A stretch of DNA of 35,542 nt, from IMG/VR virus record IMGVR_UViG_2667528074_000007. One strand, written 5' to 3'. The stretch's first letter is position 1. Each line of letters starts with the position of its first letter. Source of the stretch: a virus (lineage: Duplodnaviria; Heunggongvirae; Uroviricota; Caudoviricetes). Under the pieces are notes generated by a model that did not search any database, had not been told where the DNA came from, and saw only the letters and a program-made list of their open reading frames with translations. Of this stretch, positions 2,892-22,532 are shown piece after piece. A program made the translations under genes and the position numbers.

Positions 2892-3970
2892 CAGAACGGG
2901 TCCTCCTGTACTCTGGCTTTTTTCTTTTTCCGCGCGCCGGGGGCTTCGGGTTCAGGCAGATAAGCATCAGGCGGGCCGACACGGATTTCCGTCAGGGTGC
3001 CGTTCTGGTCCTGAGTAAACGTGACTTCCGAAACAAGCAGTTCGGTATTGTCGAAACCACAGACCGGATCAAAGACAATCACCCGCTGGTTGGGCTGCCA
3101 CAGCGTACCGTTACCCTGTCGCCAGCCCTGCACCACATAGGTGGTTTCATCCGTCCGCGCCGCCCGTTGTCGGGCTTCAAAGTCCGCACGGGCAATACAA
3201 CCTGCCCCCGTAGCCTGCCCTGTCTGCCTGATATACATCGGACGGTAACGGGCAATAAATGCGTCCTCTGTGCGGGCCCGCAGCGCGGTGGTGGTGGCCT
3301 CACCGAAATCATCGTCGTTTCCGGCACGCTGCCCCGCCACCTGGTAAACAGAAAATCGCTCCTGGATACTCTTCTCCGTATCGCAGGAAAGGATGTTTTC
3401 CCCGAGTACCAGCGCGGTATGTGCCCGCGTTGAGCCAATACCGCCAATCACCAGCCTGCCGTGCGGGTCGTCATAAGCCAGCGCCTGCTGCTGACCGAGT
3501 ATTTTGTTAATCACCTCGATCACCGTTTCACCGTGATCAGGCTGGACATCAGGAATAACACCCGACGGCGCACCGCTGTTCACCACCTCAATGCCGAAGG
3601 GCGCAGCAAGCGCCTGCGCAATCTGTACCAGTGATCGTCCGTTAAACTGTGTCGGTTCGGCTGCACAGTCAATCAGGTCAGCAGTCAGACTGCGTCCGGC
3701 AATACCGGTGCTGACCGAACGGGCATCGTAACGAACGGGCGTCGCCTCCACCCAGCCGGTGATCACCCGCTCATCACCAATCAGCACCTCCACTTTTGAA
3801 CCGTTTTTAATGCGCGGCTGAAGCGTGGTAATACCCTCATCACCCGGCCACTGGCGGGTGATCTCCACACTGAAATCCCGCGCCAGCCGTTCAATACCGG
3901 CACCGATGCGCACCGATGTCCAGCCATTCCACTCCCGGCCATTTACCCGTAGCGTGACATTGTCGTTCAT
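2891..3970 (-). CDS. Mu gpP-like tail protein (late control gene D family)
   Basis: 359-aa ORF directly downstream of the DNA circulation protein, as in Mu gp43-gp44. Confidence 0.7.
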   Translation of the reverse strand: MNDNVTLRVNGREWNGWTSVRIGAGIERLARDFSVEITRQWPGDEGITTLQPRIKNGSKVEVLIGDERVITGWVEATPVRYDARSVSTGIAGRSLTADLIDCAAEPTQFNGRSLVQIAQALAAPFGIEVVNSGAPSGVIPDVQPDHGETVIEVINKILGQQQALAYDDPHGRLVIGGIGSTRAHTALVLGENILSCDTEKSIQERFSVYQVAGQRAGNDDDFGEATTTALRARTEDAFIARYRPMYIRQTGQATGAGCIARADFEARQRAARTDETTYVVQGWRQGNGTLWQPNQRVIVFDPVCGFDNTELLVSEVTFTQDQNGTLTEIRVGPPDAYLPEPEAPGARKKKKARVQEDPF

Positions 3971-5301
3971 TGCACTGGCACCTTCAGAGGGATCACCGGC
4001 ACAAAGCCGGGATGCGTAATGGCATTACGCCGGATAATGTCCGCGTCACGCGCCGCGTTATCAAACCAGGTCGCCGCCAGCACCAGCGCGGGTAAAACCT
4101 CATCCGGTGTGCGCTGAATGATCCGTGCAGACTGTTCAAGGCGCGTGTTGATATCCGCATTCAGATCTGCTTTCACCCGGCGCAGCGCCAGAAACAGCGC
4201 ATCGCTGGTTGTACGGGACAACTCCTTATCAATTGCCGTATTCAGTGTGTCGCGAATGTCAGTCAGTTCTTCCCACGTCGGCAGGTCAACCGTGTTTTTC
4301 ACCGCCGGTGCATTGTTCAGTGCCGGATGCGTGACGGAAGGCCAGCCAGTGCTCTGCGCGGGTGTTGTTGCCTGCCCCACTGTGGCATTCTGCATCACCG
4401 CGGAAGTTGTTGGCGCAGGCAATCGGGTGACGGCATACGCCGCTTCGCTGATTGCGGTCGTACGAAGGGTGCTGGCAACCACGTTACGCTGCTGCGTCGC
4501 CGTGGCGGTGGTTTTACTGTCCGTTTTCCAGACGCCGCGCGGTTGCAGATCGCTGCCGAGGCTGACACCGGAAAGCGTTTTGATCATGGTGACCAGGTCG
4601 CTGGCGTTACCATAAAGGCGTTTCCCGGTACGCCACATTTTCTGCACCTGCTCAACGAAATTTTTGCCTGACGATGGCGGCGGCAGAAGTACCGAGATAT
4701 CCCCCTGCAACAGCCTGGCGGCGTCCGATACGGCAGAATCCACCACTTTCATCGCATCAGAAACATACCCCAGCATTATGCTGGCATTACCGATAACGTC
4801 GTTCTGCACGAAATCCGCCACACCATCGATACTGAAACCGCTGAAGCTGTCACTGATGCAGTTATCCAGTGCAGAACAGGATGACATCAGCGTCTGCGCC
4901 GTCGCCGCACCTGATGTGGGGTAAGAGAGTTCTCCTGCTTCGACAAACTTCAGGTCAAAGCGGACAATACGCCCTTCACTTTTCGATGTGCTGACCCGAA
5001 CTTCCCCGTCAACACAGACTTTCAGCTCACCGTATGTCGGATGGACAAGCGTGCCGGGACCGGGTTTATTCAGCGCGTCAATCAGGCGATCGCGCTGGTC
5101 AAAGCAGTCATCTCCCACCACATAAGCCGTGATGGACGGGCGAAAAGTGATTTTCCCCAGGTCTTCGGTATAGGGTTTGTCGCGGTTCGGGTATTCATGT
5201 GTTTCCACACGGCGACCGGTTCCCGCACTTTCTTCTTCAACCTTAAACGGCACACCTCGAAATGACGCATCCTGAAGCCTGTCTTTCCACGTCATATACA
5301 C
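3967..5301 (-). CDS. DNA circulation protein (Mu gpN-like)
   Basis: 444-aa ORF; N-terminus MYMTWKDRLQDASFRGVPFKVEEES...HEYPNRDKPYTEDLG matches the DNA circulation N-terminal domain; sits downstream of the tape measure gene. Confidence 0.8.
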   Translation of the reverse strand: MYMTWKDRLQDASFRGVPFKVEEESAGTGRRVETHEYPNRDKPYTEDLGKITFRPSITAYVVGDDCFDQRDRLIDALNKPGPGTLVHPTYGELKVCVDGEVRVSTSKSEGRIVRFDLKFVEAGELSYPTSGAATAQTLMSSCSALDNCISDSFSGFSIDGVADFVQNDVIGNASIMLGYVSDAMKVVDSAVSDAARLLQGDISVLLPPPSSGKNFVEQVQKMWRTGKRLYGNASDLVTMIKTLSGVSLGSDLQPRGVWKTDSKTTATATQQRNVVASTLRTTAISEAAYAVTRLPAPTTSAVMQNATVGQATTPAQSTGWPSVTHPALNNAPAVKNTVDLPTWEELTDIRDTLNTAIDKELSRTTSDALFLALRRVKADLNADINTRLEQSARIIQRTPDEVLPALVLAATWFDNAARDADIIRRNAITHPGFVPVIPLKVPVQ

Positions 5302-5310
5302 TCCGAAAAT

Positions 5311-5336
5311 AAAAAAGCCACCTATTAGAAGGTGGC
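5311..5336 (-). terminator. Rho-independent terminator downstream of the 176-aa moron gene
   Basis: Plus strand reads AAAAAA-GCCACC-TATTAGAA-GGTGGC; on the minus strand this is a 6-bp GC stem followed by a U-tract, 21 nt after the stop at 5357. Confidence 0.5.
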
Positions 5337-5356
5337 CTTGTAATGAATTTTATTAA

Positions 5357-5887
5357 TTAGCGAGTCAGAAACAACGAATCTTTATACTTTTGCTGTTGTT
5401 CATTTAAATACTTAGCTGTTTCATCGCTGGCAAATGGAAATATTACCGTATTTTTAGGCATGGTAATTTCTTTTTTGTCCAGCGTCAGAGTAAACATAGG
5501 AACATACTGAGCAGAGTAACGCACCGCAGAAACGAGCTCTAGTTTAGACTCTTCAATAACACTTAAATTATCCAGGCTAACTTTCTCTTCATCTTTTTTC
5601 TTTGACGCATTTAAAGTTTTTATTACTTTATTTAATTTCTCCTGAAAATCCTCCTTAAAGTTTTCAGGATTGCCGTCGACAACAAGAATCTGTTCACCCT
5701 GATTATCTGGAAAAATAATCTTTGTACTTATCAATTTATTTTCTTTATAAACATCACCAAGTTTTATGGCTCCTCCAGATAACTGAATAATATGTTCATC
5801 TTTAAAGGAGATGTTGCCAGAGATTATGAGAGATGAAAAAATAGCCGCTGCTCCAAGAATTACACTTGCTGTGATATAGCCTTTCAT
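5357..5887 (-). CDS. Hypothetical exported or membrane-anchored protein (moron inside the tail cluster)
   Basis: 176-aa ORF with hydrophobic N-terminus MKGYITASVILGAAAIFSSLIISG; markedly AT-rich compared with flanking tail genes; own terminator; inserted between tape measure and DNA circulation genes. Confidence 0.6.
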   Translation of the reverse strand: MKGYITASVILGAAAIFSSLIISGNISFKDEHIIQLSGGAIKLGDVYKENKLISTKIIFPDNQGEQILVVDGNPENFKEDFQEKLNKVIKTLNASKKKDEEKVSLDNLSVIEESKLELVSAVRYSAQYVPMFTLTLDKKEITMPKNTVIFPFASDETAKYLNEQQQKYKDSLFLTR

Positions 5888-5978
5888 TTTTCGCCTATTA
5901 ACATTTTTCTAAATGTGCATTAATTCTATCACTCTATTTATGACTTACAACCAGCAATACATGTGAGGGGAATCCTGG

Positions 5979-7811
5979 CTACCAAAATCGGGTATAGCCA
6001 ACATCGTGATTTATATCAATGCCACTGGAGCGTGTTTCCGTAACCCGCATACCTGGTGGCATATTTATAAATGATACCTTGATCTCACCATCAACTTTTG
6101 GCGCGGTAGCTTTATTAATCATGAAGGGATTCGAGCCTGTGGCATCGGAGGCGTTGTTTGCCTGAGCCGGATCCACCGCCGGATAAGGAGTGTATCCCCG
6201 TGCCGGTATTCCCGTCCCATAAGCATCATAAGCACCCGCGCCCCACTGCGCAGAGTTAATGGTATCGACCGTGTCACCGGAACTGTCGGTAAACCACTCA
6301 ATAATTGGCTTCAGCTTGTCCCACATATCCTGAAACCACTTAACAACCGGCCCCCAGTTATTGATCACCATCCCCATCGGCGACCAGGCAAAAACTTTCT
6401 TAAGGAGTTCCCAGCCAGCCTCAAAATAAGGACCAATGGTTTCCCAGAGCTTCTTGAAATAAGGTCCGACAACATCCCAGTTAGTGATAATTAATCCCGC
6501 AGCCAGGGCTATCGCCGTCGCAATCATGCCAATCGGCGTCATCGACATGATCCTGCTGACAATGCTGATGGCACTGCCCACGCCCATCAATCCCAGTTTC
6601 AGAATCGCAAGACCGGCAGCAAGCCCGACGACGCCGCGAATAACCCGGGGATTTTCATCCGCAAACTTCGTGAATTTTTCCCCCAACTCCCCCAGCCATT
6701 GCGTGATATTTTTAGCGTCACCAGAAAATGCGCCGCCAATAGCCGCAAGGCCGTTAGTTGCGGTCCCTGTCATTGCCTCCCACAGGTTGGACAGCGTACC
6801 AAGCTGTGCCTGAACACGTTTATTCAGGCTGGCCTGTTTATTCATCTTCTGCTGGATCTGATCGTAGCCATCCTTTCCTTTATCGATTAGTGCATTGACC
6901 ACCTGAAGGGTTTCGGCATCATCACCAAATATTGCCTTAAGTACACCGGTTCGCTTAACGTCGGTCAGTTTTCGCAGCTTTGCCAGTTGCCTGAACATGT
7001 TATCAAGACCGCCAAAATTCCCTTTGCCATCAGTAAAATCGAGCTGTACCCCGAGTTTCTGGCGGGCCATGATTTTATTGACGTCCCTGATTTTCTTAAC
7101 GCTTAATCCGGACTGGATAACTTTTCGCAGGGCATTACCTGCCGACTCCCCGTTCATCCCCATCTGATCCATCATGACACTGATGGGGGCAAGGCTCTGT
7201 GCAGCCTGAAGACCGTCCTTGTTCACCATCTTCAGAACAGAACTGGTTTTAGTGAAGAAGGACAACATGTTGGTATCGTCAACGCCCAGATAAAACGCCT
7301 TCTGGATAGTGTCGAACAGCCCCATCATGTCTTCTGACGCCGTTCCGGTAGCATCCTGCATCTTTGCAGCAAACTCAGCAGCCGCTTCCGGTGTTTTTTT
7401 CAGTTGTACCGCAAGATAAGCTGTCGCTTTACCCACACCACCCAGAATGTTTTCTGCCGGAATCCCCTGACGCACCAGCATCTGCATCATGTTCTGGAAA
7501 TCAGCCGTTGTACCGGGTAGCTGGTTACCCAGTCCAATAGCCAGTTTATTGATGTCCTGAAAGCTCTTTCCAACCTCGCCGTTCGCATCCATCATGGCGA
7601 CTTTCAGCCCGGTGGCGGCGTTTTCCTGATCGGCATAAGATTTCAGGGAAAGCGTCAGACCCGCTGCCAGTCCGCCACCAAGCGCCAGCCCACCCTGTGA
7701 CGCTTCTTCCGCCTGGCGTTTAAATCCCCGGATTTTCTTTTGCATTTTCGACAGCGCGGGAGAAAGCCTGTCGACACCGGTGATCAACGCCTTAAGCTCA
7801 AATTCAGCCAT
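5979..7811 (-). CDS. Tail tape measure protein
   Basis: 610-aa ORF, Ala/Gly-rich with hydrophobic central segments, immediately downstream of the frameshifted chaperone pair. Confidence 0.85.
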   Translation of the reverse strand: MAEFELKALITGVDRLSPALSKMQKKIRGFKRQAEEASQGGLALGGGLAAGLTLSLKSYADQENAATGLKVAMMDANGEVGKSFQDINKLAIGLGNQLPGTTADFQNMMQMLVRQGIPAENILGGVGKATAYLAVQLKKTPEAAAEFAAKMQDATGTASEDMMGLFDTIQKAFYLGVDDTNMLSFFTKTSSVLKMVNKDGLQAAQSLAPISVMMDQMGMNGESAGNALRKVIQSGLSVKKIRDVNKIMARQKLGVQLDFTDGKGNFGGLDNMFRQLAKLRKLTDVKRTGVLKAIFGDDAETLQVVNALIDKGKDGYDQIQQKMNKQASLNKRVQAQLGTLSNLWEAMTGTATNGLAAIGGAFSGDAKNITQWLGELGEKFTKFADENPRVIRGVVGLAAGLAILKLGLMGVGSAISIVSRIMSMTPIGMIATAIALAAGLIITNWDVVGPYFKKLWETIGPYFEAGWELLKKVFAWSPMGMVINNWGPVVKWFQDMWDKLKPIIEWFTDSSGDTVDTINSAQWGAGAYDAYGTGIPARGYTPYPAVDPAQANNASDATGSNPFMINKATAPKVDGEIKVSFINMPPGMRVTETRSSGIDINHDVGYTRFW

Positions 7812-8222
7812 GTGTGCGTTTCTCCTGCTCTATCCTGTTTGCCTGACTGACCAGCAAGGGAATTTCACTGATCGGCATATTCAGCAATTCGAAGGGATTA
7901 ATGCGCCAGTAGCTGGCGCAGTCAAAGAAGCGATCAGTGAGGTATTCAGCCGTCAGGCCTGGAGGAAAAAACCAGCCACAAGCCACGCCGCTGCATTCAG
8001 GTCTGCCGGAGACATCTGGTCGACAGAGCTTTGCGGCACTTTCGCCAGCCGCACAATGTATTTCGACACCACATGCGCCAGAAGTCTGACGGACTCATCC
8101 TGATTCATCTGGTAGGGATACCCCAGCTCGCGGACATCCTTCCCGGTGGGTTCATCAAACTCCAGTACGGAGAGTGTCTCACCATGAGCGATAATCGGTT
8201 TCTTTAACTCAAGCTCTTTCAT
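7804..8222 (-). CDS. Tail assembly chaperone, two overlapping frames joined by a putative -1 programmed frameshift
   Basis: ORF 7953..8222 (89 aa) and ORF 7804..7986 in the -1 frame overlap upstream of the tape measure gene; the overlap contains T_TTT_TTC in the upstream frame. Confidence 0.6.
7965..7971 (-). promoter_or_regulatory. Slippery heptamer TTTTTTC for -1 ribosomal frameshift
   Basis: Minus strand reads GCT GGT TTT TTC CTC; the X_XXY_YYZ heptamer sits in the overlap, and a -1 slip continues as F-F-P-P-G-L-T, matching the downstream ORF. Confidence 0.5.
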
Positions 8223-8578
8223 TACTGGTAATCCCCTTCTTCACCGTGGAACTCAAGATCAACCGTGCCTTCTTCGGCATTATGGTTCGCTTCTCCGTGC
8301 AGCCAGGCGGACGACAATACATAGACCTGACCGTTCGCCAGCTCGGCAGTGATGGTCATCTCATCAGACGAGGTGATTTTACTCACCGGAAAATTCTTCG
8401 GCACCTTGAATGTCCCTTTGACATAAGGCGCACGGTGAGTTTCCTTGCGGTCCACTGAACCGTCCAGGCCGATGATGTCATCATTGACCGTCCTGTTCAT
8501 GGGCACCTCAATGCCGCCGGTCAGCGATAGCTGCTGACCGTCAATTTTGAAATAACAGGTTCCCCCGATACGGGCCAT
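8222..8578 (-). CDS. Tail tube protein (Mu gpM-like)
   Basis: 118-aa ORF directly downstream of the sheath gene with 1-nt overlap. Confidence 0.7.
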   Translation of the reverse strand: MARIGGTCYFKIDGQQLSLTGGIEVPMNRTVNDDIIGLDGSVDRKETHRAPYVKGTFKVPKNFPVSKITSSDEMTITAELANGQVYVLSSAWLHGEANHNAEEGTVDLEFHGEEGDYQ

Positions 8579-10074
8579 TATGCAGACTCCTCTGAATACT
8601 GAAGACGGAACTGGTTAACCACGGCAAAAACACGCAACTGGTTAACATAGTCAGGCGGGAACAGCGTGTTCAGGCGGTTCGGATCGCTGGCATCACGCTC
8701 CACAACCAGGTACTGCTTAAACAGTTCGTAGTTTTCCACGATCCCCGCACGCTCAAGCTGACGGTAGGTTGCCAGCAGTTCCCCTTTGATTACCGCCGGG
8801 GTGACAATCGCCTGACCGGGACCAAAGCGGGTACCGTCGCTGGCAAGCTTGTGACGCCCGTACTTACTGGTAATGACGGATTTCAGTTTGCGCAGTACAT
8901 ACGCACTGGTATGCAGCGTCTCGCTGTCGAGGTAGCTGTTATCCGCAACCCCGTAAGAATTTTTCCTGTACGTGGTGACATCACGCTGAATGCGCAGCAC
9001 CCCGCTTTCGACATACGCCGTTGCCACGCCATGAGACAGCAGGGTCTGCTGCTCGGTCATCGTGAACCGTTTCCCCTTCGGCGCAGGCAGCATACCCACC
9101 AGCTCACCGGTCTGCGTGGGACGTGCCGGATCGTTGCGGATAAACACCGCTGCGCGGGCGGTACGGCTTGCCGCCAGCTCGTCGGCAGGCGTCTGGGTCT
9201 CTTTTTCGTACCCCGCCAGGGTGATGTGCTGCTGGTTAAACTGGTCACCTGCGTTCACCAGTTCTGACAGTGTGCCGGTCTTTGCCGTATACACATGACC
9301 ATACAGCTGACGCGCATAGCTCCAGCGACCGCTGGTATCGTTCATCTCGGTCACCAGCGTGTTAACGGAGGCCGTGTCGTTGAACGGCAGACCGATATAA
9401 TCAAACGGCTCATCCGCCATTGCAGCCACCGCGCCGGTGAGAACCGGAGCGCCCGTTCCGACGGTCCCCGTCGCCACGGCAATCTGTACGCCCGCTGGCA
9501 GCACTTCGCCCCCACCGAAGCCGTAGTAATTGAGGCTGACAGGAATTTCATTCCCGCAAAGCCCCTTATGACGCGCGGTCAGTGTGACCACGCCAGCCGA
9601 AGATGAAGCTGTAAACGGCAGAGTCGGAACGGCATTGATGGCATCTTTGATACTGCTGGCAATCGTCGTGACGTTATCGCCGTTGGTCACCGGAGCCTGC
9701 ACGCGGGTACGTCCCACATAGACATTCACCGTGCCGCTTTCGGTTGCTTCCCCGGTCACCGTCAGCGTAACCGTTGCCGCCGCGCCTGTGGCTTCCGGAA
9801 CGGCAATCACATACAGCTCACCAAACGGGTCGGTCTGGCGATAAGCCTCGACCATACGCGCCAGCTGACTTCCCGCACCACAAATCTGGCGTGCATAGTC
9901 TGCCGACGGCATCAGCACCAGACTGTTGGCAACAATCTCTGCACCGTTATTGGCATGACCAATCAGCAGCGATGCTCCGCTGTCCTGTGCAGTATTCGCA
10001 GCCTGGTTATCCATTTCCGCATAAAACAGCGGAACCAGCGTATTCGACGGAATGGTGTTAAAGCTTATCGTCAT
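8578..10074 (-). CDS. Contractile tail sheath protein
   Basis: 498-aa ORF, canonical size and position for a Mu-like sheath, followed by tube. Confidence 0.85.
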   Translation of the reverse strand: MTISFNTIPSNTLVPLFYAEMDNQAANTAQDSGASLLIGHANNGAEIVANSLVLMPSADYARQICGAGSQLARMVEAYRQTDPFGELYVIAVPEATGAAATVTLTVTGEATESGTVNVYVGRTRVQAPVTNGDNVTTIASSIKDAINAVPTLPFTASSSAGVVTLTARHKGLCGNEIPVSLNYYGFGGGEVLPAGVQIAVATGTVGTGAPVLTGAVAAMADEPFDYIGLPFNDTASVNTLVTEMNDTSGRWSYARQLYGHVYTAKTGTLSELVNAGDQFNQQHITLAGYEKETQTPADELAASRTARAAVFIRNDPARPTQTGELVGMLPAPKGKRFTMTEQQTLLSHGVATAYVESGVLRIQRDVTTYRKNSYGVADNSYLDSETLHTSAYVLRKLKSVITSKYGRHKLASDGTRFGPGQAIVTPAVIKGELLATYRQLERAGIVENYELFKQYLVVERDASDPNRLNTLFPPDYVNQLRVFAVVNQFRLQYSEESA

Positions 10075-10228
10075 CGGTGTTCACCTTTTTATTCACGCGC
10101 CGGATATCACCCGCTGCTTCACGGCGCAGCCAGTAGTTGTTCTCATCAACATTTCGCCCTTCGGCGGGCAAAAGGTCGCCGCGGGCAGGGTCAGGCACTG
10201 ACCGCCCTTTAACAGGTTTCACAAACAT
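10058..10228 (-). CDS. Small basic protein upstream of the sheath gene (56 aa)
   Basis: ATG at 10228 preceded by GAGGA 7 nt upstream; translates MFVKPVKGRSVPDPARGDLLPAEGRNVDENNYWLRREAAGDIRRVNKKVNTDDDKL; overlaps the sheath start. Below the ORF-track size cutoff. Confidence 0.4.
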   Translation of the reverse strand: MFVKPVKGRSVPDPARGDLLPAEGRNVDENNYWLRREAAGDIRRVNKKVNTDDDKL

Positions 10229-10236
10229 GATGATCC

Positions 10237-10797
10237 TCAGGAAGGAAGGGGTATTTCGGTGTGATGTTCGATATCGCCGTCAGGCCCGTTACCGGGATCG
10301 AGATAATCAACATCAATCGCCAGCGTTCGCAGTTCATCCAGACTGTTCAGGTCATCCTGCTGGCGGGTATCGTCTTCGGTCAGCTCGCTGATGACCGAAA
10401 AATCGAACTGATAAATCAGCTCATGACGATTCAGATCCAGCAGCGTGCCGCCGTCATAGGTAATCGGGTTACCGCACGCTTCCGGGTTCCAGCCCAGCAG
10501 AGCCTTAAAGAGCATCTGCCGGACATCGTCCACCACATCATACGAAGCAAACTGACCGCGCTCATCACGCCCGTTACTCAGTATGACAACCACGGAGAAG
10601 CCCTCTTTCAGCTCCTGCCAGTAGTCGGTCTGGCTTTTGTTTTCTCCCGGAGAATCATCCCCCGGTACCACATACGCCGCCGGGAGTCTCAGCTTTCCGA
10701 CCTCCGGCAGATTTTTGAACTGTGCCGCGCCTGCCACCCGGTTTTCAAAATACGGGCAGCGGGCACGCAGCGCAGCAATAACAGGCGTCAGTTTCAT
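10237..10797 (-). CDS. Hypothetical virion protein (neck / tail completion region)
   Basis: 186-aa acidic ORF between head-tail joining genes and the sheath. Confidence 0.5.
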   Translation of the reverse strand: MKLTPVIAALRARCPYFENRVAGAAQFKNLPEVGKLRLPAAYVVPGDDSPGENKSQTDYWQELKEGFSVVVILSNGRDERGQFASYDVVDDVRQMLFKALLGWNPEACGNPITYDGGTLLDLNRHELIYQFDFSVISELTEDDTRQQDDLNSLDELRTLAIDVDYLDPGNGPDGDIEHHTEIPLPS

Positions 10798-11300
10798 CTG
10801 TGTCGTCGCTCCGGCTTCAGTGATTTACGCAATTCCCGCGCCAGAAAATAGCGTGTCCAGCTGCGGTTCTTTTCAAGAGTTTCCACCATGAAGTTATTAC
10901 GTGGAGCCAGTCGCCAGCCGCTGCCACCGGATGCACCACGATGATGGCTGCGACGACGCTTTGCCCCTCGCCTCACGCCATAGAACAAAAAAGCCGGATA
11001 AAAATCACCGGTGATACGGCGGTTTCCCTCTCCATTACGCTGGTTAGGGGCTATACGTGCCATAAAACCAGGGCGATGTTTACTGGCTCTGGGTACCATG
11101 TAACCAATCGAACGAGCCAGGCGTCCGGTCTGATAACCGGGGTTTTCACCCGGTGCCGACCGCGCACGGCGCATCACCAGCCGACGGGCATCACGCATAT
11201 GACGCTGACCAATCGTGACAAACGCCCGCCGGACACGGGCGCGGTTAAAGCGCATCTCCGCAGGCTGCTGAAAATCAACGTGCAAAAAGGAAGTCGCCAT
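10794..11300 (-). CDS. Putative tail completion protein (HK97 gp10-like), very basic
   Basis: 168-aa Arg-rich ORF in the head-tail joining block; 26-nt overlap with the upstream gene suggests the true start may be an internal Met. Confidence 0.45.
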   Translation of the reverse strand: MATSFLHVDFQQPAEMRFNRARVRRAFVTIGQRHMRDARRLVMRRARSAPGENPGYQTGRLARSIGYMVPRASKHRPGFMARIAPNQRNGEGNRRITGDFYPAFLFYGVRRGAKRRRSHHRGASGGSGWRLAPRNNFMVETLEKNRSWTRYFLARELRKSLKPERRHR

Positions 11301-11685
11301 TGCTGCCTCCGTGACTCTGCCTACATTCGCCCAGCTCCGTACACTCCAGCAGCAGAAAGCGCCGCGCCCCGTTCAGATCACGCTGACGTTTCACCCGGTA
11401 CACACTGTCATCACAGACCACCTCATAATCAGCAGTGATCCCCCGGCGGTAACGAATGGTGATGTAATGGGTGATGGCGTCCCCGGTCTGCGCGGTTTCC
11501 TGCCAGGTGGTGGCACTGGTCTGGATAACCTTCGCCCATGTCCGGAACGTAACCGGGTATTGAGGCTCCACGCCAAAGTTATCCGCGGGCATATCCACCC
11601 GCTGGCGGATCAGGACGCGTTTATTCAGTTCACCGGGGTCCGGCAGAATGTAGGTTGCGCTGGTCTGCGCCTGACGAATTTTCAT
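11275..11685 (-). CDS. Head-tail adaptor / head closure protein
   Basis: 136-aa ORF directly downstream of the gp6-like connector gene. Confidence 0.55.
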   Translation of the reverse strand: MKIRQAQTSATYILPDPGELNKRVLIRQRVDMPADNFGVEPQYPVTFRTWAKVIQTSATTWQETAQTGDAITHYITIRYRRGITADYEVVCDDSVYRVKRQRDLNGARRFLLLECTELGECRQSHGGSNGDFLFAR

Positions 11686-12005
11686 TGCGGAAAGTACCTG
11701 TACGGGCCGACAAGCCAGCCAAAACTCTGCGGCATGTCGAGTTTCTCCACTTCCGTAACCGACGAGCGGTTTTCGTAAAAATGGCTGATAAGCATCAGCA
11801 TCCCCAGACGAATATCATCCGGCAGGTGCAGCCCGTCCGGATCGCTGTCCGGAATGGTTTCATCCGGTGCATAGAGCTTCCGGTTCAGATACGTTTCCGT
11901 CCGCTTTTGTGCCGCACAGGCCAGCAGTTGCAGATGGCGGTCATCAGCATCGAAATCCTCATCCAGCCGGAGTTGGGCTTTAATCTCTTCCATTGTCAGA
12001 AGCAT
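11682..12005 (-). CDS. Head-tail connector protein (gp6-like)
   Basis: 107-aa ORF following the capsid gene; typical size and position. Confidence 0.55.
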   Translation of the reverse strand: MLLTMEEIKAQLRLDEDFDADDRHLQLLACAAQKRTETYLNRKLYAPDETIPDSDPDGLHLPDDIRLGMLMLISHFYENRSSVTEVEKLDMPQSFGWLVGPYRYFPQ

Positions 12006-20394: not shown

Positions 20395-20546
20395 TTGTAG
20401 TTATCTCTCACCTCGCCGATACAAGAGGTGCAAATTGAGGGAGTACCACGAACCGCAAATCAGAAGCGGAAACGTAAAAGAAGCCGAGCCAATGGATAAG
20501 AGCTAGATAGACCAAGCCCAACGAATACCAAAGCCCAGAAACGACA

Positions 20547-20568
20547 AAACCCGCTCGACGGCGGGTTT
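20547..20568 (-). terminator. Hairpin upstream of the holin, possible tR'-like terminator of the late leader
   Basis: Plus strand AAACCCGC-TCGACG-GCGGGTTT (8-bp stem); on the minus strand it is followed by TGTCGTTTCT, about 150 nt before the holin start. Confidence 0.35.
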
Positions 20569-20676
20569 AAGCTGTGTGGCGAAGCAACCACTCTTAACAG
20601 ATTACAAGAATTTTTGCGTACGCGTTAATTTTTTTGTATTTTTCTCATTACACAATATATAAACCCTATGTAAAAA

Positions 20677-21960
20677 ATGACAGCAGAAATAGCCGTATTT
20701 AACAAGACCGCAGTAGCTTTAGCCGCAGATTCAGCTGTAACAATTTCTGGAGGCGGCAAACATAAAATCTATAATGGCGCTGAAAAGCTTTTCGCTCTAA
20801 CTAAACATCATCCTGTAGGTTTGATGGTATATGGAACTGGTGATCTCTGCACAGCTCCATGGGAGCTTATCATCAAGGCTTATAGAAAGGATTTAGGCTC
20901 TAAATGTTTTGACTCTTTGGAGGAATATGCTGAGGATTTCTTCAATTATCTACAGTCGGCTAAATCAATCATCACACCAGGTATGCGTGAGGCTCATCTT
21001 TATCACTTCCTGAGCGAGATTGTATTCAGCATGCTTGTTGATGCTTTTTCTGAAGGTCTCGAACCAACATATTTCGTTAACTTCAATAAGAATCAATTTA
21101 TTACAGACCTTACAAATTATTGCAACGATCTCCTTACAAAATTATCTGATATTAATTACTTTGATGGTTTTACTCCGGATGATGAACAAGCAGCCCAAAC
21201 CTATGCTTCATCAGTTGCCCAACGCATCATTGCTCAAAAGTTTAGTGACTTTGATCCAATATCCATAACTCCACAGTTGACAAGAGTAGTTAGTGATGTT
21301 TTGGCAGCTATGATATGCAAGCAAAGTGATATCGGTTCCGTCTCTGGGATTGTAATTGCAGGTTATGGCGATAAAGACTATTACCCTAAAGTATTATCAT
21401 ATGAAGTTTGTGGCTTCTTTAATGATAAAATCAGGAAAACTACAGATGCTGACAAGTGCTGCATCACTCCTAATTGCGGCGTGACTCCTTTTGCGCAAGA
21501 GGATGAAGTTTCTGCTTTCATGCAAGGAGCTAGTTCACATCTTATCCAAAATCTTCATGCTGAGTATCAACGTTCTATCGTCGATTTACTTGATGGTATT
21601 GATTCAGTAATCACAGATTTGGTGCCTACTTCAGATATCGAAGGAGCTAAGGATGCTATAGTTGATGTAGTGCGCAGAACTGTTTCCGATTGCAAGGGGC
21701 GTATTGATAGCTTTGTCCGAGAAAACTATGTTGACAAAGTCGTAAATATGATCGAGTTTTTACCCAAGCAAGATTTAGCTTATATGGCTGAATCATTAGT
21801 AAATTTAACCGCTTTCAAGCGCAAGGTCTCCGATGATACTGAAACAGTGGGAGGCCCCATAGATGTTGCAATCATTTCTAAAGCTGATGGTTTTATCTGG
21901 GTTAAACGTAAGCACTATTTTGCAAAAGAACTGAACCATCACTACTTTTCGCGGCCATAG
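20677..21960 (+). CDS. Hypothetical 427-aa protein, possible HslV/proteasome-like Ntn-hydrolase fold; accessory gene between Q and the lysis cassette
   Basis: Only long plus-strand ORF in a minus-strand late region; AT-rich. N-terminus MTAEIAVFNKTAVALAADSAVTISGGGKHK...VGLMVYGTGD parallels HslV [22 protein letters not shown]...AGFAGGTAD as recalled; later GIVIAGYGD and VGGPIDVAIISKADGFIWV resemble C-terminal strands of that fold. No search run. Confidence 0.7.
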   Translation: MTAEIAVFNKTAVALAADSAVTISGGGKHKIYNGAEKLFALTKHHPVGLMVYGTGDLCTAPWELIIKAYRKDLGSKCFDSLEEYAEDFFNYLQSAKSIITPGMREAHLYHFLSEIVFSMLVDAFSEGLEPTYFVNFNKNQFITDLTNYCNDLLTKLSDINYFDGFTPDDEQAAQTYASSVAQRIIAQKFSDFDPISITPQLTRVVSDVLAAMICKQSDIGSVSGIVIAGYGDKDYYPKVLSYEVCGFFNDKIRKTTDADKCCITPNCGVTPFAQEDEVSAFMQGASSHLIQNLHAEYQRSIVDLLDGIDSVITDLVPTSDIEGAKDAIVDVVRRTVSDCKGRIDSFVRENYVDKVVNMIEFLPKQDLAYMAESLVNLTAFKRKVSDDTETVGGPIDVAIISKADGFIWVKRKHYFAKELNHHYFSRP

Positions 21961-21983
21961 CAACAAATAGACAAGGGGAACAC

Positions 21984-22133
21984 ATGTCACTTAAGCAAGC
22001 CTATGAAAGAACTCAACCCAAAAGCATCAATGATTTCTTTCAGTTGAGTACTTCTGGAAAGAGTCGACGCACTGTAACAAGCCAATCCAACTTCTTTACT
22101 AAATTGAACAAAACATTACCTGCACAATCCTAA
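21984..22133 (+). CDS. Small ORF (49 aa) immediately downstream of the 427-aa gene
   Basis: ATG at 21984 preceded by AAGGGGA about 7 nt upstream; translates MSLKQAYERTQPKSINDFFQLSTSGKSRRTVTSQSNFFTKLNKTLPAQS; stop abuts the terminator stem. Below the ORF-track cutoff. Confidence 0.3.
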   Translation: MSLKQAYERTQPKSINDFFQLSTSGKSRRTVTSQSNFFTKLNKTLPAQS

Positions 22134-22168
22134 AAAGTTAAAAGCCACTACGGTGGCTTTTAACTTTT
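22133..22168. terminator. Bidirectional terminator hairpin between the accessory cassette and Q
   Basis: Perfect 16-bp inverted repeat AAAAGTTAAAAGCCAC-TACG-GTGGCTTTTAACTTTT; the Q stop codon (22167..22169) lies inside the right arm. Confidence 0.6.
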
Positions 22169-22532
22169 ATTTACATGCCATAACGCTCGTAATCCCCTCT
22201 ACAAAACCAATTGCAGTTTGCAATTCCTTTCTAATCGTGCCATCTGAACACCTTCTCTTCTTGGCAATAGTGCGTAATGAGATACCAATAACAAAGTGAG
22301 CTATGATGAGCTCATATTCCTCTGGTTTATACTTTCGCAACCGAGCCACACAACCGTCTATTATGATGCCCTCATCATCATCGCACTGAATCCGGGACTT
22401 TCTGCCATGAGGTAAAAGCCCCTTGAAGCCTGCTGCTATAGGTTGCCAATCCACACTACTGTTATCTGCTGCAGCCCATGCTCCCCAGCGGTCCAATACT
22501 TCATACATATCACGCATCAACCTTCTCCACAA
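22167..22532 (-). CDS. Putative late antiterminator Q
   Basis: 121-aa ORF at the Q position of a lambdoid map, after DUF968 and before the lysis region; C-terminal part looks HTH-like. Family assignment is from memory. Confidence 0.55.
   Translation of the reverse strand: MWRRLMRDMYEVLDRWGAWAAADNSSVDWQPIAAGFKGLLPHGRKSRIQCDDDEGIIIDGCVARLRKYKPEEYELIIAHFVIGISLRTIAKKRRCSDGTIRKELQTAIGFVEGITSVMACK

What the first reader, a model, noticed from the sequence alone, without database searches (positions are those of the whole stretch)
5311..5978. AT-rich moron with its own terminator inserted inside the tail gene cluster
Tail clusters are normally tightly packed; here a 176-aa ORF with an N-terminal signal or anchor sequence and sharply lower GC than its neighbours sits between the tape measure and DNA circulation genes. 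It has about 90 bp of upstream non-coding DNA and a clean terminator. This is the signature of horizontally acquired cargo expressed from the prophage, for example superinfection exclusion or envelope modification. I do not recognise the sequence.
Basis: partly seen in the sequence, partly recalled or inferred. Interest (0 to 1): 0.5.

Follow-up and report, generated by a model that had tools for sequence, protein, structure and literature searches.

The report
Envelope-protein moron in prophage tail operon
A small, AT-rich, self-contained gene cassette for a membrane-anchored periplasmic protein of unknown function sits at a cargo "hot spot" inside the tail genes of an E. coli SfV-like prophage. 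It is a textbook phage moron, most likely a barrier against infection by other phages, but its protein family has never been studied.

Summary
A 176-aa ORF (5357-5887, minus strand; GC 0.34 against 0.51-0.59 for its neighbours) lies between the tape-measure gene and the Mu-N-type DNA-circulation gene. It has 91 bp of upstream spacer and a strong hairpin plus U-run terminator.

It is optional cargo, not a tail part. Counts in 5,426 complete E. coli genomes:
- about 520-550 have this junction uninterrupted, as in phages SfV, SfI and SfII;
- 179 carry this cassette;
- 85 carry an unrelated signal-peptide cassette;
- 28 carry a bacterial-PH-domain cassette.

Homologues (78 clusters, Gammaproteobacteria-wide, no Pfam family) occupy at least four different slots in different phage backbones, and also non-phage islands. 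They are AT-rich in every host.

- The terminator is a fixture of the junction, present even when the junction is empty.
- The gene is not a recent arrival. It has diverged in place together with the tail genes in Escherichia, Leclercia and Edwardsiella prophages.

The function is inferred, not shown. The best guess is superinfection exclusion at the envelope, by analogy with HK97 gp15. This is a new member of a known kind, of moderate interest.

The parts
5357..5887 (-). Cargo ORF of 176 aa (RefSeq WP_000679479.1, 'hypothetical protein'; phrog_5485). It has an N-terminal membrane helix (residues about 2-23) and a periplasmic alpha/beta domain.
   Evidence: ORF and translation. phrog_5485, 1e-107. 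RefSeq annotation. Hydropathy. AlphaFold pLDDT 91.6.
5304..5339 (-). Intrinsic terminator: 10-bp stem (5339-5314), 6-nt loop, then a U-run. It lies immediately upstream of the ribosome-binding site of gene N.
   Evidence: -15.6 kcal/mol, z -3.55. An equivalent hairpin + T-run sits at the same place in all junction variants, including the empty one.
5888..5978 (-). AT-rich upstream spacer of 91 bp (GC 0.34). It holds a weak AGG ribosome-binding site 6 nt before the ATG.
5923..5950 (-). Candidate sigma-70 promoter: -35 TTGTAA, 16-nt spacer, extended -10 TGaTAGAAT, ending 35 nt before the ATG. Unproven.
   Evidence: 9 of 12 consensus matches, but such sites are not enriched over shuffles.
5979..7811 (-). 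Upstream flank: tail tape measure protein, 610 aa.
   Evidence: PF10145, phrog_28/17727.
3967..5295 (-). Downstream flank: Mu gp43/N-type DNA-circulation (baseplate hub) protein. The probable start is the ATG at 5295; the longest ORF extends to a GTG at 5301.
   Evidence: PF07157, phrog_184.

Best explanation
The region is a phage moron: a self-contained promoter-ORF-terminator cassette. It occupies a recombination-permissive cargo site at the tape-measure | gene-N junction of the late operon of an SfV-like (HK97-type head, Mu-type contractile tail, lambdoid Q-regulated) E. coli prophage.

Shown:
- The cassette is optional at this junction and is interchangeable with at least two unrelated cassettes.
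- Its protein belongs to a Gammaproteobacteria-wide, unannotated family of about 175-aa proteins. Members have a single N-terminal membrane helix and a conserved extracytoplasmic alpha/beta domain (motif N-[IV]-[IL]-x4-G-x-V-x-L-G-x-V-Y-x-E ... Y-x-S-E-x-x-P-x-F-x-L).
- Phages carry the family in several different slots.
- The protein is under purifying selection but diverges 2-5 times faster than the adjacent tail proteins.

Inferred:
- In the lysogen the gene is transcribed from its own weak promoter and stops at the hairpin terminator. During lytic growth, Q-modified RNA polymerase reads through that terminator, so tail gene expression is not disturbed.
- The product inserts N-in/C-out into the inner membrane, with its domain in the periplasm.
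- There it acts as a superinfection-exclusion or envelope-level defence factor. It would interfere with the step at which an incoming tail (tape measure or hub) crosses the periplasm and inner membrane to deliver DNA. This is analogous to, but not homologous with, HK97 gp15, Ltp and Sie2009.
For: Moron status:
- SfV, SfI and SfII have a 45-bp junction between the same two genes, with flanks 94-95% identical.
- E. coli census: 179 genomes with this cassette, 85 with the SKA5-type cassette, 28 with the bPH_1 cassette, and about 520-550 uninterrupted.
- The GC trough and the terminator.
- A Q antiterminator gene in the same prophage (PF06530).

Mobility of the family, by context:
- the same slot in Leclercia and Edwardsiella;
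- between hub and spike in a different myovirus baseplate cluster;
- just before a 767-aa gene (no Pfam match), upstream of baseplate genes, in a Yersinia prophage;
- between Q and the holin in a Citrobacter lambdoid prophage;
- a decayed prophage in Pantoea;
- a non-phage islet in Pseudomonas.

Envelope location:
- 58 of 60 family members have exactly one N-terminal hydrophobic segment, and the segment is preceded by a positive charge in most.
- The confident AlphaFold model shows helix 2-23 followed by a 6-strand/2-helix domain.
- The only significant structural neighbour in BFVD is annotated as a phage lipoprotein (E 1.5e-6).

Defence link:
- In Aeromonas the gene lies directly after an Ltp-type (PF07553) superinfection-exclusion lipoprotein gene. 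The setting is an AT-rich island next to McrBC, with proteins resembling PD-T4-6 and PDC-S26.

Selection:
- pN is 0.30-0.40 against pS 0.74-0.84, and dN is 0.39-0.57 against 0.06-0.25 for neighbouring genes.

Precedent:
- The HK97 gp15 moron lies in a tail operon next to the tape measure gene, has the same ORF + hairpin + next-gene-RBS layout, and encodes an inner-membrane exclusion protein (PMC3594210).
Against: - There is no experimental or transcriptomic evidence of expression in the lysogen.
- The promoter is only a consensus match, not enriched over chance, and it is not conserved in sequence in the Leclercia and Edwardsiella copies.
- The defence-island association comes from one genus and is guilt by association.
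- The other cassettes at the same junction include a cytoplasmic PH-domain protein, so the site itself does not imply an envelope function.
- A cleaved signal peptide cannot be excluded in place of a membrane anchor.
Confidence: 0.45

Rival explanations
1. A host-fitness (lysogenic conversion) envelope factor unrelated to phage defence. It would be a prophage-expressed periplasmic or inner-membrane protein that changes envelope properties. Examples would be serum or stress resistance as with Bor/Iss, or immunity to a periplasm-acting toxin such as a colicin, a T6SS effector or a tailocin.
For: It has the same moron architecture and envelope topology as in the best explanation. Related prophages carry other conversion morons, for example iss in the near-identical E. 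coli S51 prophage. A Pantoea family member lies in a decayed prophage that also carries a colicin/pyocin immunity gene. A Pseudomonas copy sits in a chromosomal islet with no phage genes.
Against: There is no similarity to Bor/Iss, Lom, Cmi or any known immunity protein. The family occurs predominantly inside phage or prophage DNA. The only informative non-phage neighbourhood is defence-like.
Confidence: 0.25
2. A non-essential accessory protein of the lytic cycle, expressed only with the late operon. Examples would be a periplasmic or membrane factor that modulates lysis timing, or one that protects the already infected cell from secondary adsorption or 'lysis from without', as T4 Sp and Imm do during infection. 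On this view it would not be a lysogen-expressed gene.
For: It is co-oriented with the late operon and embedded in it, so Q-dependent read-through must transcribe it late. The promoter evidence is weak. One homologue lies between Q and the holin genes. Three others lie next to tape-measure, hub or baseplate genes.
Against: Most close relatives do without it, and unrelated cassettes replace it. It occupies at least four different slots and also non-phage islands. It is separated from its neighbours by spacers and a terminator rather than translationally coupled as the tail genes are.
Confidence: 0.15
3. A structural or assembly component of the SfV/Mu-type tail, for example a tape-measure or hub chaperone, that happens to be AT-rich.
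For: Position between the tape measure and hub genes. Synteny across three genera.
Against: It is absent from SfV, SfI, SfII and SfIV, which are viable isolated phages, and from about 520-550 E. coli prophage junctions. Homologues occur in a siphovirus-type lambdoid Q-lysis slot and in non-phage DNA. The N-terminal membrane helix puts the domain outside the cytoplasm, where tails are assembled.
Confidence: 0.03
4. A decaying or non-functional ORF, that is, selfish filler DNA at a recombination hot spot.
For: There is no annotated function or domain. A few truncated copies exist in the databases.
Against: The exhaustive search finds 78 clusters at 50% identity, and members keep a similar length, topology and motifs. 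pN is far below pS. The deep alignment gives a confident, compact fold (pLDDT 91.6). The cassette is at least 99% conserved in 179 E. coli genomes.
Confidence: 0.05

Closest known systems
HK97 gp15 moron (Juhala et al. 2000; Cumby et al. 2012; reviewed in PMC3594210)
   Same: It is an independent cassette inside a tail operon, directly adjacent to the tape measure gene. The ORF is followed by a hairpin + T-run terminator that abuts the ribosome-binding site of the next tail gene. The product has an N-terminal membrane helix. HK97 gp15 is the archetype of a tail-operon moron whose product blocks DNA entry by other phages in a tail-dependent way.
   Different: The proteins show no sequence similarity (BLASTP E = 18). 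gp15 is 62 aa and belongs to the YebO family, with almost no extracytoplasmic domain. The protein here is 176 aa with a folded periplasmic domain of about 150 aa. The slots differ (chaperone|TMP against TMP|hub), as do the tail types (siphovirus against contractile). Exclusion activity has not been shown here.
Ltp-type (PF07553) and Sie2009-type superinfection-exclusion proteins of Gram-positive temperate phages
   Same: They are prophage-expressed, membrane-tethered proteins with a small extracytoplasmic domain that block DNA injection (from established knowledge; PMC3952083 is listed). An Ltp-domain gene lies immediately upstream of a family member in Aeromonas.
   Different: The window protein does not match PF07553 or any other Pfam model. 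It has no lipobox cysteine. Its predicted fold (6 strands and 2 long helices) is not the helix-turn-helix repeat fold of Ltp.
phrog_5485 (PHROGs v4, 'unknown function')
   Same: Full-length match: 1e-107, residues 1-176 against profile positions 1-176 of 176. The protein is a member of this family.
   Different: The PHROG carries no functional information. The exhaustive search shows that the family is much wider than the close E. coli group (78 clusters).
Cargo or defence hot spots of temperate phages, e.g. the lambdoid Q-lysis moron slot and the P2/P4 hot spots
   Same: A fixed junction between conserved genes holds alternative, unrelated, AT-rich single-gene cassettes in otherwise near-identical phages. 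One homologue of this family sits in the classical Q-holin slot.
   Different: The TMP|N junction of SfV-like phages did not turn up as a described hot spot in the searchable literature. None of its three cargo genes matches a PADLOC defence model. The 176-aa and SKA5-type cargo proteins were scanned. The bPH_1 protein was not scanned against PADLOC.

Membership tests
Phage moron (Hendrix/Juhala definition) | Extra DNA between two genes that are adjacent in related phages | tested here: met
   SfV, SfI and SfII have a 45-bp TMP|N junction with flanks 94-95% identical. About 520-550 E. coli genomes have the junction uninterrupted.
Phage moron (Hendrix/Juhala definition) | Nucleotide composition distinct from the surrounding genes | tested here: met
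   GC 0.341 (GC3 0.299) against 0.51-0.59 for the neighbours.
Phage moron (Hendrix/Juhala definition) | Own transcription terminator | tested here: met
   10-bp hairpin + U-run, -15.6 kcal/mol, z -3.55. Caveat: a hairpin at the same position exists in the empty junction too.
Phage moron (Hendrix/Juhala definition) | Own promoter | tested here: inconclusive
   TTGTAA-16-TGaTAGAAT at 5950-5923(-) matches 9 of 12 consensus positions, but promoter-like sites are not above the shuffle expectation (2 against 2.6). There is no sequence conservation in the orthologous spacers.
Phage moron (Hendrix/Juhala definition) | Expression from the repressed prophage | not testable with these tools
   Needs RNA-seq or a reporter in a lysogen.
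phrog_5485 | Full-length profile match | tested here: met
   E 1e-107, residues 1-176 against profile 1-176 of 176.
HK97 gp15 / YebO superinfection-exclusion family | Sequence homology to gp15 | tested here: not met
   BLASTP E = 18. The lengths are 62 and 176 aa.
Ltp-type Sie lipoproteins (PF07553) and other Pfam-, NCBIfam- or PADLOC-defined exclusion or defence families | Match to the family profile | tested here: not met
   There are no hits for the window protein in Pfam (E<=0.01), NCBIfam (E<=1) or PADLOC (E<=1). None of the 60 family members has a consistent Pfam hit.
Superinfection-exclusion proteins (functional class) | Blocks infection or DNA entry by other phages when expressed | not testable with these tools
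   Requires plating and DNA-entry assays.
Mu/SfV-type tail structural or assembly proteins | Conserved presence in related tail clusters | tested here: not met
   It is absent from SfV, SfI, SfII and SfIV and from most E. coli SfV-like prophages. It is present in unrelated slots and in non-phage DNA.
Bitopic or secreted envelope protein | Single N-terminal hydrophobic segment, remainder soluble | tested here: met
   Hydropathy 2.11 for the 19-residue window from residue 5, with none elsewhere. 58 of 60 homologues are alike. AlphaFold models helix 2-23. Anchor versus cleaved signal peptide is not resolved.

The most novel reading that the evidence does not exclude
The 176-aa protein may be the founding member of a new, Gammaproteobacteria-wide class of phage-borne envelope defence proteins with a fold not seen in solved structures. 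On this reading it is anchored in the inner membrane and blocks the tape-measure- or hub-mediated membrane-penetration step of incoming contractile-tailed phages. Separately, the tape-measure | gene-N junction of SfV-like prophages would be a previously unrecognised cargo or defence hot spot, with at least three alternative cassettes in E. coli.
Probability: 0.3. Interest if true: 0.6.

Novelty: new member of a known kind. Interest (0 to 1): 0.4.

Why it matters
SfV-like prophages are common in E. coli and Shigella. About 880 of 5,426 complete E. coli genomes hold a match to this junction. If the cassette confers phage exclusion, it would add a new protein family and a new hot spot to the catalogue of prophage-encoded defences. 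It would also give a handle on how contractile tails cross the periplasm and inner membrane, a step that is poorly understood outside T4. The family's confident predicted fold without solved relatives makes it an inexpensive target for structure and function work. If it is only a fitness or conversion factor, it is one more ordinary moron.

Tried and rejected
- Pfam, NCBIfam and PADLOC scans of the protein gave nothing. Pfam on 60 homologues gave only scattered chance hits.
- tblastn of the protein against 50,697 phage records found no match. The gene is known only from prophages and from a few phage-sized 'plasmid' records.
- tblastn of a Pseudomonas family member against the phage records also found no match.
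- The afdb50 fold library was unavailable.
- The single BFVD hit, 'Lipoprotein' of Pseudomonas phage ventosus, could not be followed up. The literature search was uninformative.
Two of three single-protein scans of viral contigs found nothing.
- A second word-index homology search recovered few distant members.
- Rfam gave only sub-threshold matches to the terminator hairpin.
- No flanking direct or inverted repeats suggest transposition.
- No paper mentions WP_000679479. No paper was found that describes a moron at the TMP|N junction of SfV-like phages. The SfIV paper's 'moron' is the Q-lysis one.
- Structural or assembly role: rejected on distribution.
- Lipoprotein: rejected, as there is no conserved cysteine or lipobox.
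- Recent acquisition as the explanation for low GC: rejected because of the syntenic, diverged orthologues.

Full report
**1. What is in the sequence**

The window is a prophage whose late genes run on the minus strand.
- Around the finding, Pfam identifies sheath (8578-10074), tube (8222-8578), tail assembly chaperone (7953-8222) and tape measure (5979-7811, PF10145).
- Next comes the 176-aa ORF (5357-5887).
- After it come a Mu-N/gp43-type DNA-circulation protein (3967-5301, PF07157), Mu gpP/gp44, gp45, gp46 and baseplate J.
- The structural genes overlap or abut. The ORF is set apart by 91 bp upstream (5888-5978) and about 60 bp downstream.
- GC drops from 0.51-0.59 in the neighbours to 0.341 in the ORF (GC3 0.299), and to 0.31-0.34 in both spacers.
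- Downstream there is a 10-bp hairpin with a 6-nt loop followed by UUUUUUAUUUU. Its energy is -15.6 kcal/mol with z = -3.55, and none of 200 shuffles folds as well.
- Upstream there is one sigma-70-like site with an extended -10 (TTGTAA-16-TGaTAGAAT, 5950-5923). The scan finds no more such sites than in shuffled sequence, so it is only a candidate.
- Rfam finds nothing above threshold, and no repeats flank the cassette.

**2. It is optional cargo at a hot spot**

Megablast of 4800-6500 against phage records shows the following.
- SfV, SfI and SfII share both flanks at 94-95% identity but lack about 620 bp. In SfV the two genes are 45 bp apart.
- SfIV, which has a different tape-measure allele, is also uninterrupted.
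- Phage SKA5 has an insert of the same size at the same place, but it encodes an unrelated 170-aa protein with a signal peptide (phrog_8976, GC 0.31).

Counts in 5,426 complete E. coli genomes:

| State of the junction | Genomes |
|---|---|
| This cassette, nearly all at >=99% identity | 179 |
| SKA5-type cassette | 85 |
| 125-aa cytoplasmic bacterial PH-domain protein (PF08000) | 28 |
| Uninterrupted, SfV-type | about 520-550 |

The 552 genomes with at least 80% coverage include some PH-cassette genomes whose aligned pieces were joined. That is why the uninterrupted count is given as a range.

In every variant, including the empty one, the junction ends with a GC-rich hairpin, then TTTTTTAT, then GGAG and the ATG of gene N. 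So the terminator position is a constant of the site, and only the stem sequence differs between cassettes. The prophage has a Q antiterminator (22167-22532, PF06530). From established knowledge of lambdoid late transcription, Q-modified polymerase would read through such terminators.

**3. The protein family**

- The protein is RefSeq WP_000679479.1, 'hypothetical protein'. It is a full-length member of phrog_5485, unknown function.
- It has no Pfam, NCBIfam or PADLOC match.
- A word-index search found only E. coli copies and about 53%-identical Leclercia and Lelliottia proteins.
- An exhaustive HMMER profile search of 1.84 billion representatives found 78 clusters at E <= 1e-3 (49 at E <= 1e-10). 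Most full-length members are 165-205 aa.
- The alignment shows a conserved N-terminal hydrophobic segment, a motif N-[IV]-[IL]-x4-G-x-V-x-L-G-x-V-Y-x-E just after it, and a Y-x-S-E-x-x-P-x-F-x-L motif in the second half.
- Named members come from Edwardsiella, Mangrovibacter, Citrobacter, Serratia, Yersinia, Pantoea, Enterobacter, Aeromonas, Pseudomonas and Alkanindiges.
- 58 of 60 members have exactly one hydrophobic 19-residue window (Kyte-Doolittle > 1.6), at the N-terminus, preceded by a positive charge in most. There is no conserved cysteine or lipobox.
- With the 60-sequence alignment AlphaFold gives pLDDT 91.6. The model has helix 2-23, strands 32-36, 39-44, 46-58 and 65-72, helix 74-93, strands 114-126 and 132-143, and helix 149-171.
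- BFVD gives one significant neighbour, annotated 'Lipoprotein' of Pseudomonas phage ventosus (E 1.5e-6, TM 0.66 on the target).

The topology inferred from the positive-inside rule is N-in/C-out, which puts the domain of about 150 aa in the periplasm. A cleaved signal peptide cannot be excluded.

**4. Where the homologues sit**

| Host or source | Identity to the window protein | Context |
|---|---|---|
| Leclercia | 53% | Same TMP \| x \| N slot of SfV-like prophages |
| Edwardsiella | 41% | Same TMP \| x \| N slot |
| IMG/VR viral contig | 30% | A different myovirus baseplate cluster, between a hub-like gene (weak PF22759 E217_GP41 match, below Pfam's cut-off) plus a 113-aa ORF of unknown function, and the gpV-type spike; own spacer and terminator |
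| Yersinia rohdei prophage | 30% | Just upstream of a 767-aa gene with no Pfam match, probably the tape measure, in a third kind of tail cluster |
| Citrobacter lambdoid prophage | 31% | Between antiterminator Q and the holins, the classical moron slot |
| Pantoea | not compared | Decayed prophage |
| Pseudomonas yamanorum | not compared | Small AT-rich chromosomal islet |
| Aeromonas | not compared | AT-rich island next to McrBC, directly downstream of an Ltp-type (PF07553) lipoprotein gene; nearby are proteins resembling PD-T4-6 (C-terminal RDD part) and PDC-S26 |

- In the same-slot prophages the tail proteins are 68-86% identical to those of the window (TMP 36-75%).
- The gene is AT-rich in every host: 0.33-0.43 against 0.45-0.60 for the surrounding loci.
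- For the same-slot orthologues, pN is 0.30-0.40 against pS 0.74-0.84. This indicates purifying selection, although dS is saturated.
- Nonsynonymous divergence is 2-5 times that of the adjacent tail genes.

**5. Interpretation**

Shown:
- This is a moron at a cargo hot spot.
- It is not a tail component.
- It encodes a conserved, selected, extracytoplasmic protein of a mobile family that is mainly phage-borne.

- The low GC does not mark a recent arrival. The gene has co-diverged in place across three genera, and the whole family stays AT-rich.
- The terminator is a feature of the junction rather than of this cassette alone.

Inferred:
- The gene is expressed in the lysogen.
- It acts in envelope-level phage exclusion.

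The inference rests on four things:
- the precedent of HK97 gp15, a tail-operon moron next to the tape measure gene whose inner-membrane product blocks DNA entry (PMC3594210; identical cassette layout);
- the bitopic topology;
- the faster-than-neighbour evolution;
- the Ltp/McrBC neighbourhood in Aeromonas.

It is not homologous to gp15 (E = 18) or to any defined exclusion family.

My estimates:
- about 0.9 that it is a moron;
- about 0.45 for the full statement that includes exclusion;
- 0.25 for a non-defence conversion or immunity function;
- 0.15 for a late-only accessory role;
- 0.05 or less each for a structural role or for junk.

**6. Novelty and score**

The kind of element, a tail-operon moron, is textbook. 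The specific protein family is uncharacterised and has no solved structural relative. No description of the TMP|N junction of SfV-like phages as a multi-cassette hot spot was found in the searchable literature. I classify it as a new member of a known kind, with interest 0.4. It is a good and inexpensive experimental candidate, but not surprising to a specialist.

Noticed in passing
window 20400-22400 (ORF 20677..21960, + strand): A second AT-rich island (GC 0.375-0.405) lies between the Q antiterminator (22167-22532, -) and the lysis genes. It holds a 427-aa ORF on the strand opposite to the late genes. The ORF matches phrog_5990 (unknown function) and has no Pfam or PADLOC match. This is a second moron, in the classical Q-lysis slot.
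   Followed up: partly
L001 2087-2599 (-) (phage SKA5) and 85 E. coli genomes: An unrelated AT-rich cassette (GC 0.31) sits at the same TMP|N junction. It encodes a 170-aa protein with a cleavable-looking signal peptide (phrog_8976, unknown function; no Pfam, NCBIfam or PADLOC hit).
   Followed up: partly
L012 1659-2036 (-) (E. coli 30EVA2) and 28 E. coli genomes: A third alternative cassette at the same junction encodes a 125-aa cytoplasmic bacterial PH-domain protein (PF08000 bPH_1, 3e-48; WP_001514801.1).
   Followed up: partly
L027 4300-11300 (Aeromonas contig, GCA_027707925.1): An AT-rich island (0.45 overall, with genes at 0.29-0.44) lies next to McrBC. It holds a string of small membrane or secreted proteins: an Ltp-domain protein, the family member, a duplicated 59-aa membrane protein, an RDD protein resembling the C-terminus of PD-T4-6, and a PDDEXK_4 protein resembling PDC-S26. 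It looks like a defence island made of single-gene envelope cassettes.
   Followed up: partly
window 5290-5304: The longest ORF for gene N starts at a GTG at 5301. However, GGAG (5301-5304) followed by an ATG at 5295 matches SfV orf15 and the RefSeq 442-aa annotation, so the real start is probably 5295.
   Followed up: yes
L003-L008, about 10013-11810 (Leclercia prophages): These relatives carry two extra genes (about 503-520 aa and 94 aa, no Pfam match) between gene N and gene P. The genes are absent from the window and from L009 (L. pneumoniae). This is another variable junction in the same tail cluster.
   Followed up: no
plasmid records NZ_CP148394.1, CP088862.1, NZ_CP146678.1, NZ_CP081716.1: The cassette also occurs on 19-64 kb 'non-mobilizable plasmids'. 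These are probably circular phage genomes or phage-plasmids assembled as separate replicons. One of them, NZ_CP081716.1, carries a 66%-identical variant of the protein in E. coli.
   Followed up: no
L015 145-1005 (metagenome contig): A 286-aa family member has an N-terminal extension of about 110 residues before the membrane helix. It lies next to a Ser/Thr protein kinase gene. The contig is too short to judge the context.
   Followed up: no
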